Position numbers and translations under genes: made by a program. DNA of 64,000 nt from Harriotta raleighana. Its lineage: Eukaryota. Positions within the stretch are counted from its first letter, which is position 1, and every line of letters starts with the position of its first letter. The stretch is taken from positions 3,733,538 through 3,797,537 of the forward strand of contig JBNZDD010013730.1 in NCBI GenBank assembly GCA_050575255.1, in the 5' to 3' direction. The notes below the pieces were generated by a model, which was given only the letters and a program-made list of their open reading frames with translations, made no database searches and was not told the origin of the DNA. Shown here one piece after another: positions 34,063 to 38,914 of this stretch.

Positions 34063-36384
34063 TCACATAGACCCTCTGCTTAGAAACTGCTCTCTGATGT
34101 CATATGGTAATGTATTAAAGATGTCCTCTTCCACATCAAGTTGACTTCTCTTCAGATTTAGGCACTTCTCTAGTTCATGTGGTAATTCTTGCAATCTATT
34201 ACCTTTCAGTTCCAGTTGCCGGAGTTGAGTCAAATTTCCCACTTGGTGGGGAATGAAAAGTAAAAGGTTATGGGAAAGTATCAAAACTCTGAGTTTTGTG
34301 CATTGAAAAAGTTCCAAGGGTAATTCAGATACTTTGTTACTTTCAATATCAAAATAGTGAAGATCTTCTAATTGCTCTATTTCACTAGGAATATTTATAA
34401 TATTGTTATGGCCAACTTCCAAATGCCGTAATTTAATTAGTTTAAATAGACTTGGTGGAAGAACAGCAATGCTATTCTTGTTTAGATACAACATTTCCAG
34501 TGAGATGACCTTGGCAATATATGGAGGGATCTGTGTGATTTTATTATGCTGAAGCTTCAGTGTGATGAGCTTGCGAAGATACTGGAAACTGGCCAACTCT
34601 TCTACGGTCCTCAGATTGTTGTCTTTGAGGTCAAGTTCCTGAAGGTTACTCAAACCGAAAATAGCACTTGGGATTCGCTCCAGATCACAATTGTAAAGTT
34701 TTAGAACAGAGAGGCAAAGTAATTTCCTGAGATTGTTGAGAGTAGCCAACTTCTTGCCTTGATTATGAATTGAAAGGTGCTGAAGGTGATGGGCAACATC
34801 AGCAACCACTGCAGGTACTTTGGTGATGTTGGATTTCAGATGCAATGACTTAAGATGTTCTAATTCACAGAATGACTGCAAGACAATAGAGGATTTGTTA
34901 TCGATTAAAAAGTTGCCTTCCAGGTACAATTCATGAAGATTCTTCAGACTGTACATCCACTGTGGTATTTCATCAGCATTTGCAAACCGAACTCTTAAAA
35001 TTGTTATTGTATCTTTTAAAAATGCGAGTGCTCGATTTTCTACCTTTATGATACAATTGTACACCCACAGTTCTTGAAGTGATGTTTGCTGTGAGATTGC
35101 TGCACTAATCAACACATCCTTAATAAATTCCAGCTTTAGTACTTCCAGATTATAAATATCATAAACACTATTAGGAATACCAGGCATCATAAAAAGATGC
35201 AATTCAGTTTTGTTGTCTTCATTTGTAGCTATGCGCTGTTGAAGTTTTTCATGTGTCCACTCGTAACTCAGACTCAACTGGCGAAGTTTATTTTCACTAA
35301 CATCAGAAAGAAACACAGCAAATTTCCGAGCATACAGTTTGTCATATTGATCAATCAGATGCAACAGAAATGCAAAATCATTCTTCACATCTGGAATATC
35401 ATCAATCCCTGTTTCTTCCCTCACATAAGCAAATGAGTATTCCTTAAGTTTAAAGTAAAAGATCCAGTACAGTGTGTATGTACAGGTTATACAATAAATA
35501 AATATGACCACGACATACACTATGGATAACATTCTGAAAATCCTCCAAAGACCATGAATGCAGAAAAAATCTGTGAAGCCAGTAAAATGAATTTTATCTA
35601 TGCAATGGACAATATGTTTCATTTGAGGAATTAGAGTTACAAAATAGACGAGAATGATAATTGTTTGAACACAGCGTAAAATAGTTTGTCTTATGTACAT
35701 CAAATAAAGAATGTGGCCCTCTTCAGTGTGAAGACGAAACTTTTTGACTTTCTCAAACAATGCTTTTGCTTGTTCACCTTCCTTTTTGTCGAGAATTTTC
35801 ACAGAAGCATGTCCATAAACGCCACCTCCAACAGTTTTGAAGGTTTTTGAAGGCATCTTACAAATTGGTTCCTGGGCTTCATTTGGACATATTGTGTCAG
35901 AACTGCTTTCCTTTTGTCCTAACAAAAGAGTAGTTTCAGATGTTGGCTGAAGGCTCCCAGAGCATGACACAGATTCATTTGTTGCTAAAACAGTTCTCTG
36001 TGGAAACTGTAAGTCAGAATCCTCATAAACAGTTTCGGAAAGTGCCTTTGTAGTCCACTGAGAATCTAAACATTTCCCAAGGATTGAAATAAAATGTTCA
36101 ATTTTAGAACTTGTACCTGGAAATTTGAACCAGAAGTTGCTGCTCACTAAAAATACAAGTGTGTGAATGATAACTATATATGGGAAATATTTGGAGTACC
36201 ATTGAATTGCATGGTCATAGCAATATTGATCCATCAAATTATACTGTTCATGGTCCAAGCCAGTCTTAAATCCAGAACCTAAACTATTCAATTTTCGACC
36301 TATAAGAGCACTTTTGTTCCACTGCATTGAGATCATTGAGAATCCTTCTGGCACAGGGACGCAGATTATCTTGTCTGTTGATAT
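34063..36384 (-). CDS. Extra LRRC8-family paralogue, coding exon 2 (ECL1-TM4, intracellular loops, LRR domain); total 819 aa
   Basis: Acceptor aaatatag|ATA TCA ACA GAC AAG ([10 protein letters not shown]) is in frame with the 763-aa ORF. Motifs [58 protein letters not shown]; LRR repeats; no stops or frameshifts. Confidence 0.92.
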   Translation of the reverse strand: [773 protein letters not shown]

Positions 36385-36559
36385 CTATATTTAAGACACA
36401 AGAGACAAAAAGAAAATTACCATGAATTCAGCCTGTTGCAAAGTTTTCATCTACTTCTGTTAATTATTCTCTATTTCTCAATTTTAAAGCATCATTGGTG
36501 AAAAAATATATATATTTTGGTCTGCCAGGATTCATCCATATGCGAAAACCCACCACAAA

Positions 36560-38620
36560 TCGTAAAAGTATTCAAACCAAGCTGAGATTTTCATGCATCC
36601 CATCTACACATGAAAATCCCAGAGATAAATTGCTGGAATGTAATGCACAATCTCTTCATGGAGAGATGCATCCTGCTTACCTAATTCCAGAAAGTATTAG
36701 GTACAGGTTGGCAAGAATCAAAGTTTGAGGACGTCAGAGTGTGCTTTGATATACTGCTGGAGTCTCACCAGCTAATAATACATAGCTTGCCATTAATATT
36801 GCTGCCCACAGTGAATGATCTACCCATCGGGGTCTTACCAATGAGCCAGGCTAGCTGTGCTGTCATCAGCAGTGTCCTGGAATATTGCAGACCCACCTGG
36901 CTCAGAAATCGGACTATTGAGACCACCACAGACGGCTGGCTCGATTGTGACATTTCATTGCGAGACATGTCACCTTGGAGCTAGTTCTTCTCCAAGGATA
37001 CTCATCTTGGTGAAAATACATAATCTCAAGTAGTACAATCATTTTCACTATGATAGCCCAAATTAAATATTAAAGAAAGAAAAAATGTTAGTCAAATCTT
37101 TTTGTACCATTTCAAAAATCCCTAGTAGGCCCTTTGTGACCTAGAAGGTAGTTTCCAAATATGCAGCTCCAATTTTTCAAAAAAGAATACTTGCTTGGCA
37201 CTTCAGTTAACTTTGTTAAGCTTGAATAGAGAAAATGTCACACAATGGTGTAGTCAGAAACCAAAAGGTATATCCATGCAGAAAAGACCAGAGCCAACAC
37301 TGGGAGAATGCCATCAGCAACAAACAAAAAAACAGAAATGAATACTCTACAAGATCACACTGAACCATGACACATTTCTAAAGCACGAATATGGCTTTAC
37401 AGAGTTGGGAAACTGCATGTTGTTGGAATACGGAATTGATTTTCAAACTTTTTTTCTGGTCAAAGTCTCAATTGCATAAGATTTAGTAACTTGGGATGTC
37501 CTCCTGATGTGAAAGATGATATACAAATGTAATTTGTTGTTGAAGATTATGAACATACACTGACATTTGGGATTTCAGTCTCTTGTTATGGCTGAAAGAA
37601 TGTTGTAAAATTTATAGTTGTCACACTGAAAATGTAATAGTGATTTTTAAAAAAGACTATTTATGCAGCTAAATTAGTATTAAAATAATATCAATATTGT
37701 TTCAAATTCTGATAGTGAATTGAGCACTGGAATCCATCTTGATTTGCAGAGATCAGCTGCTGCTATTAATCTCCATACCTCTAACTGGTGGAACCGTGAC
37801 TCAATGGGAAGAAATGCATGTCCAAGCTGTGGGCGGGAAGTTTATGGCAATTCTCTCAAGCATTTTGTGCTGAGATGTGTTGCCCACCAAGAAACTCGTA
37901 CAGAGTTCTTGGTACCTAAACCAAAGTTTATTGGATGTCAAATGACCAATCTGGTTGGTGGGGGACAAGTAGGGTCCCCTTGGAGTTGAACTGGCTCTAA
38001 GGTGACAAAATAATAATCTTGTGTTTGATATAGCACCTTATCATGTCATCAAGACATCTTAAAGCTGCACAGAATATAGTGATTGGTTGTATATTTTGTG
38101 TATGAAACCTGTTTGGCAATGGAACATCAGAATCAAGCCATCCTCTGTGCTGGTCTCGGCAGTTCAGTATCTGAGCCAGTCTGGTTCATAATACAAAGGC
38201 CCCTGTTCACAACAGCACAATCAGATTGGCTCATCAGCAAGACTTGGAAGGCCAGAACAGTCACTGGGAGCAAGGACTCCTTCAAGCTCCTAATAACCCC
38301 GCAAGCTAAAGCCGTACCCGATAGGGTGGTCCTAGCCGGACAATCAGCAGGACAGCTTGCCAGATACAGCTTTCAATGGCAAGCCATGTAGTTTCAGCTG
38401 GTTAGACTCCAGCAGTATGCAAACATATTCTGGGGTCACCAAGCCTTCGGTCTGGTCAATCTGCGCATAATACTTTCCCGAATTTGGCAAGCAAGATGCG
38501 TCTTTCCAAGCAGAGAATGCCTTCAATAAACATCTCTTGAATTTCCAAGTAAAGGTGTGATGCATGGACTCTGTTTCGTTTGGATATGTTAAGCATGGTG
38601 ATGTGTTTCTGAACATGTCA
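36560..38620. mobile_element. Fragments of an old non-LTR retrotransposon in the extra LRRC8 gene's intron (36560-36965 +, 37790-37930 +, 38110-38620 -)
   Basis: Mutually homologous inverted copies sharing atactgctggagtct(c/a)accagct; CPSC...HFVLRC zinc-knuckle-like peptide at ~37815-37880. Confidence 0.55.
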
Positions 38621-38776
38621 AGATACCCAACCGACCAAAAAAAAAATCAATGACAATGCATACAAGATTAAACATGATAGCCAACATATTACTTCAAGAT
38701 ATTATCCCAAACATTGATAATTCTATAGGCAAACTATTCTGCAAAATTTAATATATCTAGATGCAAAAATGTTTAC

Positions 38777-38914
38777 CTGCAGCGTCCCTCCAAACACTGC
38801 TATCATAAGCATCAAAACTGTTAAATAGTCTGTGAAAACATCCCACCATGGTTTTAAGATTTTAAATGTAGCCCGTTGGTCTCCAAAATACTTCAGTTCA
38901 ACCACTGAAAACAT
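38777..38914 (-). CDS. Extra LRRC8-family paralogue, coding exon 1 (46 codons, N-terminus + TM1)
   Basis: [46 protein letters not shown]. Acceptor ttttttag 2 nt before ATG. Donor CAG|gtaaac at 38776, phase 0. Confidence 0.92.

What the first reader, a model, noticed from the sequence alone, without database searches (positions are those of the whole stretch)
34063..38914. An additional, intact, divergent LRRC8/VRAC subunit gene between LRRC8D and ZNF326
Seen: a complete 819-aa LRRC8 ORF in two exons with canonical splice sites and conserved extracellular cysteines (IIC54, YCY, VHC, FFC). Established: in mammals the cluster is LRRC8B-LRRC8C-LRRC8D-ZNF326 with no LRRC8 gene after D, and VRAC properties are set by which of B-E co-assemble with the obligatory LRRC8A. 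From memory this protein fits none of A-E cleanly. A-like: [40 protein letters not shown]-like: [34 protein letters not shown], and an intron after codon 46 as I recall for LRRC8C/E. D-like: MF start and acceptor at -2. Inference: an ancient sixth paralogue lost in mammals, or a fast-evolving lineage duplicate, possibly relevant to osmolyte handling in a urea/TMAO-retaining fish. Extra LRRC8-like genes may already be auto-annotated in fishes, so novelty needs checking.
Basis: partly seen in the sequence, partly recalled or inferred. Interest (0 to 1): 0.85.

Follow-up and report, generated by a model that had tools for sequence, protein, structure and literature searches.

The report
Lost fourth branch of VRAC subunits
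This cartilaginous-fish gene is an intact member of an unnamed, likely vertebrate-old branch of the swelling-activated anion channel (LRRC8/VRAC) family that sharks, sturgeons and amphibians keep and humans lack, and its protein would likely join LRRC8A as an extra subunit that tunes what the channel lets through.

Summary
Confirmed: a two-exon, 819-codon LRRC8 gene (here 'X') lies between LRRC8D and ZNF326. Contigs and stranded reads from related species cover its exons and stop at its splice sites. It is not a relocated C or E, nor a young duplicate of D: all such placements are rejected (AU p 6e-5 or lower), and it evolves as slowly as C and D. X has orthologues in sharks, rays, sturgeons, newts and frogs, and a sister paralogue 'Y' (also coelacanth) that sits beside ZNF326 paralogues on another contig. 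X+Y form a clade (100/100) outside A/B, C/E and D that also holds a lamprey protein, so it is likely a fourth primordial LRRC8 lineage. None was detected in amniotes or teleosts (search not exhaustive). RefSeq lists these proteins as 'LRRC8C-like' or 'A-like'; ten paper searches found no description, but Abascal & Zardoya 2012 could not be read. X keeps the A/B-type filter residue (Arg in 12 of 13, His here) but lacks A's essential intracellular-loop motif, so it is most likely an accessory subunit. Function is untested. A urea/TMAO-specific role is not supported.

The parts
38777..38916 (-). First coding exon of LRRC8-X: 2 nt of 5' UTR, ATG at 38914, 46 codons (N-terminus and TM1)
   Evidence: a contig of run X2 matches exactly 38777-38916 with 30 unaligned letters on each side
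36385..38776 (-). Phase-0 GT-AG intron after codon 46, same position as in C and Y of this genome; holds repeats
   Evidence: bins 37123-37339 and 37557-37773 have depth 0-0.08 in RNA run X10
34063..36384 (-). Second coding exon: codons 47-819 and stop (EL1 to TM4, intracellular loops, LRR domain)
   Evidence: contigs of X1 and X2 end at 36384 (X4 at 36386); X10 first mates lie on one strand
36250..36252 (-). Codon for His91, aligned with the LRRC8A selectivity-filter Arg103; Arg in 12 of 13 X rows with data
34036..34041 (-). ATTAAA, possible polyadenylation signal 22 nt after the stop (inferred, not tested)
41500..42500 (.). CpG island between the end of D and X; likely promoter and non-coding first exon of X, with a donor-like AAA|GTGAGT near 41791 (inferred)
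   Evidence: GC 0.55-0.59, CpG o/e 0.79-0.88; sequence; an upstream exon is implied by the X2 contig but its place is not shown
46116..48644 (-). LRRC8D, single coding exon, 842 aa; upstream neighbour, 51% identical to X
13195..24881 (-). Matched exons of ZNF326 (AKAP95 family); downstream neighbour

Best explanation
X is an intact LRRC8 gene of a separate lineage (X plus its sister paralogue Y) that likely split from the A/B, C/E and D lineages before jawless and jawed vertebrates parted, and its protein likely works as an accessory subunit that co-assembles with LRRC8A into swelling-activated anion and osmolyte channels. Shown: ORF, splice sites, gene order, clade membership, slow evolution, transcription in related species. 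Inferred: an ancestral tandem cluster of four LRRC8 types beside an AKAP95-family gene was multiplied by the early vertebrate genome duplications, giving B-C-D-X-ZNF326 on one chromosome and E, a D-like gene, Y and AKAP8-like genes on another; X and Y were then lost in amniotes and probably teleosts. Predicted: X cannot reach the surface or gate alone because it lacks A's D182-E206 loop motif; in A/X hexamers it adds a basic side chain (Arg; His here, so possibly pH-sensitive) to the outer filter where C/E/D/Y add a hydrophobic one, so A/X channels would have a narrower, more anion-selective filter than A/C. The Glu beside it in cartilaginous fishes (A has His104) would break the A-type His-Asp intersubunit salt bridge on one face and disfavour tight X/X packing.
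For: Trees: X 7 rows 99/97, Y 8 rows 100/99, X+Y 100/100 on a 0.52 stem, 36 rows x 784 columns; lamprey protein P0237 joins X+Y (100; 100/100 on the pore domain alone) and a hagfish protein joins A/B (99). AU tests reject X+E (8e-10), X+D (8e-80), XY+C (6e-5), XY+A (5e-45), lamprey+hagfish (3e-6). The lamprey row, not used to pick them, has 7 of 15 X/Y diagnostic residues; the 27 non-XY rows have 0-3. Synteny: gene models in a bamboo shark and two sturgeons fuse X to ZNF326; Y lies about 6.5 kb from the nearest of three ZNF326 paralogues. Two shark species each have X, Y and an E-type gene. 22 synonymous to 7 non-synonymous among the 29 differences listed against a relative, dN/dS about 0.09. 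Model of the shark orthologue matches LRRC8A/C structures, E 1.5e-65, TM 0.74. E6, T44, four cysteines, K235 and an EL1 sequon kept. A-loop motif score 22 in X against 94 in A, reached by 78 of 200 shuffles; its role from PMC6028502 passages; filter and salt bridge from PMC9851909 section 10.
Against: No functional or binding data exist; co-assembly with A is by analogy only. The tree has no invertebrate outgroup, so it is unrooted, and the order among the four lineages is weak on full length (77/71) although the pore domain pairs X/Y with C/E (97/92). On the pore domain alone X is not resolved as one clade. The lamprey row is a long branch of odd composition and the AU tests used LG+G4 on 28 of 42 rows. 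The coelacanth Y-type protein is recorded on a contig of the same length (172,207,807) as coelacanth B and D, and a Pleurodeles X and Y share one too, which the two-cluster model does not predict. Loss in amniotes and teleosts rests on lists cut at 120 of about 1,040 hits; a partial sturgeon X model fell below that cut. The 29 differences are a partial list, and three of the four runs laid are only guessed to be RNA. No joint spanning the intron was among those shown.
Confidence: 0.72

Rival explanations
1. X is a second core subunit: alone, or with Y and the extra D-like subunits, it forms volume-regulated channels that do not need LRRC8A.
For: X shares the A/B pair Arg103-Asp110 and T44 while Y has the C-like hydrophobic-Asn pair, mirroring the A-versus-C split inside the X/Y lineage. 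Its disordered intracellular loop is 70% identical between this species and a shark, so it is constrained.
Against: No match to A's D182-E206 motif; lacks A/B's third disulphide cysteine and His104; LRRC8B also has Arg-Asp and is not a core subunit (PMC6028502 passage); A is intact in this genome.
Confidence: 0.13
2. X is a B-like modulator or intracellular subunit: it enters complexes but dampens currents, or works in ER or lysosomes.
For: B is the only known non-A subunit with the filter Arg and gives no current with A alone (PMC6028502 passage; ER role discussed in PMC9399500 passage).
Against: X is least like B among the named subunits (45% against 51-53%); gene structure and pore-domain tree put it with C/E.
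Confidence: 0.11
3. X is a relocated or diverged LRRC8E or C, or a recent tandem duplicate of D.
For: No E was found in this assembly; X shares the codon-46 intron with C; it lies next to D; databases name it LRRC8C-like.
Against: AU tests reject each placement; C is present separately; two sharks have X, Y and an E-type gene together; X evolves no faster than C or D.
Confidence: 0.03
4. X is a silent or decaying copy.
For: His replaces the otherwise constant Arg at the filter in this species; no run on record as RNA holds this exact sequence.
Against: Intact frame, dN/dS about 0.09, an in-frame 3-nt indel in relatives, exon-bounded contigs and stranded polyA reads; 88% identity to shark X.
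Confidence: 0.01

Closest known systems
LRRC8C / LRRC8E (VRAC accessory subunits)
   Same: Domain layout, two extracellular disulphides, intron after codon 46 (shown for C here), FKFPG motif, nearest lineage in the pore-domain tree.
   Different: Only 52-53% identical; filter Arg/His and Asp instead of Leu and Asn; second extracellular loop one residue shorter with its own HGLWR motif; nesting inside C/E rejected.
LRRC8A (SWELL1, the obligatory subunit) and LRRC8B
   Same: Filter Arg103 and Asp110 equivalents, E6, T44, K235; best structural match 7xzh.
   Different: No D182-E206 motif, no C57 disulphide, Glu/Gln for His104, different intron; 52% (A) and 45% (B) identical; sisterhood to A rejected.
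LRRC8D
   Same: Adjacent, same strand, MF start, acceptor at -2.
   Different: 51% identical; D has no coding intron; X+D clade rejected at p 8e-80.
RefSeq 'LRRC8C-like' / 'LRRC8A-like' models of sharks, rays, chimaera, sturgeons, coelacanth and amphibians
   Same: These are the X orthologues and Y paralogues (86% to XP_041064204.1).
   Different: They are automatic names by best hit; no paper found treats them as a subfamily.

Membership tests
LRRC8 family | Pannexin-like four-TM pore domain followed by a C-terminal LRR domain | tested here: met
   PF12534 E 7.5e-91 plus LRR families; model of the shark orthologue matches LRRC8A/C
LRRC8 family | Two conserved extracellular disulphide pairs, E6, T44 | tested here: met
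   (residues present; bonds not measured)
VRAC subunit (function) | Co-assembles with LRRC8A and gives swelling-activated currents or osmolyte efflux | not testable with these tools
   needs expression in LRRC8-null cells; no complex prediction was run because a pass would follow from likeness to solved LRRC8 structures
LRRC8A orthologue | Groups with A; IL1 D182-E206 motif; third disulphide; C-terminal intron | tested here: not met
LRRC8A/B type filter | Arg at position 103 and Asp at 110 | tested here: inconclusive
   Arg in 12 of 13 X rows, His in this species; Asp kept
LRRC8C orthologue | Nests with C; Leu at filter; is the species' C copy | tested here: not met
   separate C on the same contig; AU p 6e-5
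LRRC8E orthologue | Nests with E | tested here: not met
   AU p 8e-10; sharks hold X and E-type genes together
LRRC8D orthologue or tandem duplicate | Nests with D; intronless coding region; aromatic filter residue | tested here: not met
Ohnologue pair X/Y from whole-genome duplication | Sister clades across jawed vertebrates and paralogous neighbours on different chromosomes | tested here: inconclusive
   sister clades and ZNF326-family neighbours for both in this genome; wider synteny in other species seen only through fused models, accession order and contig lengths, with the coelacanth record as an exception

The most novel reading that the evidence does not exclude
Vertebrates began with two parallel VRAC systems: X is an LRRC8A-independent core subunit that, with Y as its C-like partner, forms a second swelling-activated channel kept in sharks, sturgeons and amphibians and lost on the way to amniotes.
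Probability: 0.13. Interest if true: 0.88.

Novelty: new variant of a known kind. Interest (0 to 1): 0.6.

Why it matters
Reviews describe the family as five genes, A-E, with A obligatory (passages of PMC6363415, PMC12333906, PMC6451053). A fourth lineage as old as vertebrates changes the family's history: the human set would be a reduced one. It also supplies natural subunits with residue combinations no human subunit has (Arg or His with an adjacent Glu at the filter, no A loop), which test directly what makes A obligatory and what sets selectivity. Skate hepatocyte VRAC has unusually high cation permeability (about 0.2 against 0.02-0.04; PMC6363415 passage citing Jackson 1996); subunits that mammals lack (X, Y, extra D-like) are a testable explanation. 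VRAC work in amphibian and shark cells may have unrecognised endogenous subunits, and dozens of database entries are misnamed.

Tried and rejected
Third protein search on the diagnostic region 222-316 drew only 20 candidates (13 hits, no new taxa), so it says little about absence. The 50%-cluster HMMER search listed 150 proteins, mostly unrelated LRR proteins; 23 were picked as LRRC8-like, 17 of these were named, none from an invertebrate, so no outgroup was obtained. Sequencing runs: no RNA holder listed. Atlas search returned pannexin/innexin clusters only and was unavailable for the Gly-rich frame. Earlier findings: nothing. Abascal & Zardoya 2012 is not held. I recall a label 'LRRC8F' for an extra fish paralogue; this comes from no call, and the term has 0 papers. 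Placing the coelacanth protein in X was tested and rejected (p 0.004). Complex prediction not run: not informative for close homologues of solved oligomers. Urea/TMAO-specific retention rejected on taxon range. The figure of the LRRC8 tree in PMC4316641 (picture files) could not be read; its accession table shows only shark A-D.
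Full report
Observation. The gene is as described: exon 38914-38777 and exon 36384-34063 on the minus strand, GT-AG phase-0 intron, 819 aa, no internal stop; shuffles give at most 185 open codons. 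It has the LRRC8 pore domain and LRRs and is about equally distant from solved A, C and D (749-770 bits). The order on the contig is B-C-D-X-ZNF326. The genome is that of a cartilaginous fish, chimaera-like because its A and Y group with Callorhinchus.

Transcription and constraint. Four of the 12 runs listed were laid on 33000-39500. Contigs of X1 and X2 (RNA by guess, a related species, about 96% alike) cover exon 2 and end at 36384; one X2 contig matches exactly 38777-38916 with 30 foreign letters on each side, as expected of a spliced transcript with a further 5' exon. Run X10 (polyA single-cell RNA, raw reads) covers exon 2 at depth 2-11 with first mates on one strand and about 0 on the other, and about 0 in two repeat-free intron bins. 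No intron-spanning joint is among the 15 shown (394 not shown). Of the 29 exon differences listed (a partial list), 22 are synonymous, dN/dS about 0.09; a 3-nt indel keeps the frame.

Relatives. The first search gave 1,041 hits, 120 listed: one at 86% (Carcharodon 'LRRC8C-like', 46 members), a tier at 55-62% from sharks, rays, chimaera, coelacanth, sturgeon and amphibians, then canonical subunits at about 50%. A profile of 18 such proteins gave 1,049 hits, 120 listed, 31 of them of this group. Of 418 proteins held, 286 matched the pore domain and 84 were classed X or Y; apart from the window's own and one unnamed Logan member of the sturgeon cluster, all carry names of cartilaginous fishes, sturgeons/paddlefish, coelacanth, salamanders, frogs or lamprey. 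None is from an amniote, teleost, gar, bichir, lungfish or Xenopus, but the lists were cut and a partial sturgeon X fell below the cut, so absence is 'not detected'. For humans, five genes is the published count (PMC6363415 passages).

Own repertoire. Nine LRRC8 loci: B, C, D, X on C13730; A followed by two divergent D-like genes on C13702; Y on C13338; another D-like gene on C13485. No E was found, in line with PMC4316641 (passages and supplement table S2), which reports no E in elephant shark and used only shark A-D.

Phylogeny. Careful tree, 36 rows x 784 columns: X (chimaera-type, sharks, sturgeon, newt, frogs) 99/97; Y (chimaera-type, shark, sturgeon, coelacanth, amphibians) 100/99; X+Y 100/100 on a 0.52 stem; A/B, C/E and D groups each 100. 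Adding eight representatives, a Lampetra protein (CAM9540584.1) joins X+Y (100) and a hagfish protein joins A/B (99). On the pore domain alone (325 columns) the lamprey stays (100/100), X/Y pairs with C/E (97/92), but X itself is unresolved. AU tests on 28 of the 42 rows (14 dropped for speed, LG+G4) reject X+E, X+D, XY+C, XY+A, lamprey+hagfish and coelacanth-in-X. There is no outgroup; yet because a hagfish gene sits with A/B, the split of X/Y from A/B precedes the cyclostome-gnathostome split unless the root lies inside A/B. The lamprey branch is long and compositionally odd; its EL2 motif and 7 of 15 diagnostic residues (0-3 in the 27 other non-XY rows) support its place.

Synteny. X-ZNF326 adjacency recurs as fused gene models in Chiloscyllium punctatum and two Acipenser species, and as consecutive accessions in two more sharks. 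Y is tail to tail with the nearest of three ZNF326 paralogues (40-52% identical in the same exons); calling these AKAP8-like, and placing human E and AKAP8 on 19p13, is recalled, not from a call. Y and E share a contig length in two sharks and one frog; E and a D-like gene are neighbours in a frog and fused in a snake model. This fits an ancestral four-gene cluster multiplied by genome duplication (inference). Against it: the coelacanth Y-type protein is recorded on a contig of the same length as its B and D, and Pleurodeles X and Y share one.

Mechanism. A model of the shark orthologue (pLDDT 77.6, pTM 0.54) matches LRRC8A and C structures. X keeps E6, T44, four cysteines, K235 and an EL1 sequon. 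At the filter, which in A is Arg103 and in C Leu105 (PMC9851909 section 10), X has Arg in 12 of 13 rows with data (2 of 15 rows gapped) and His in this species; Y is hydrophobic in 23 of 25. X keeps the Asp110 equivalent but has Glu for His104 in 8 of 8 cartilaginous-fish rows. It has no match to A's D182-E206 motif, which suffices to make C and E homomers functional (PMC6028502 passages), though its own loop is 70% conserved to sharks. Hence: most likely an A-dependent accessory subunit giving a basic, narrower filter (inferred, about 0.7); an independent core subunit (0.13) or a B-like damper (0.11) remain open.

Comparison and novelty. It is an LRRC8 by every sequence test and none of A-E. 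The proteins are in RefSeq under best-hit names. Ten full-text searches found no description of this lineage. Papers seen as passages: PMC6994961, PMC4316641 (plus supplements 2-4; picture files unreadable), PMC5064130, PMC9399500, PMC6363415, PMC9851909 (plus section 10), PMC12333906, PMC6451053, PMC12182595, PMC6679542, PMC6028502. Abascal & Zardoya 2012, the one dedicated phylogeny, was seen only through citations and could mention an amphibian or fish member. Verdict: real, ancient, apparently undescribed subfamily of a known channel; function untested; interest 0.6.

Noticed in passing
G000:C13338:224382-229126 (L022-L023): Sister paralogue Y, intact, 833 aa, same intron as X, hydrophobic filter residue; beside three ZNF326-family genes.
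   Followed up: yes
G000:C13702:3242614-3257998 (L015-L017): LRRC8A is followed in tandem by two divergent intronless D-like genes (890 and 791 aa); one has shark orthologues. A further undescribed branch.
   Followed up: partly
G000:C13485:576977-579642 (L025): Another D-like gene grouping with lungfish, bowfin and perch 'LRRC8D-like' proteins (likely the D ohnologue of the E cluster); it shows a duplicated piece with an N that looks like an assembly error.
   Followed up: partly
P0115, P0172: Shark proteins named LRRC8C-like group with tetrapod LRRC8E (93-99), so E likely exists in sharks although reported absent from elephant shark and not found in this assembly.
   Followed up: partly
window 40003-41784, minus strand: 593-codon Gly/Gln/Met-rich open frame formed by a 21/33-bp-period tandem array, no Pfam match, beginning just after a donor-like site; probably a minisatellite in the first intron of X, coding status unknown.
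   Followed up: partly
window 41789-41815, minus strand: An ATG just before the donor-like site would, if that exon splices to 38916, open an out-of-frame upstream ORF overlapping the start of X.
   Followed up: no
P0014/P0162 (coelacanth), P0024/P0030/P0414/P0415 (axolotl): Coelacanth Y-type gene recorded on a contig of the same length as B and D (unexplained); axolotl has at least four Y-type models on one contig.
   Followed up: no
window 49204-49764 and 52107-52836; 556-627, 7502-7563, 16201-16263, 53470-53525: Two similar repeat copies upstream of the D coding exon, and four weak tRNA-like matches, probably SINE-derived.
   Followed up: no
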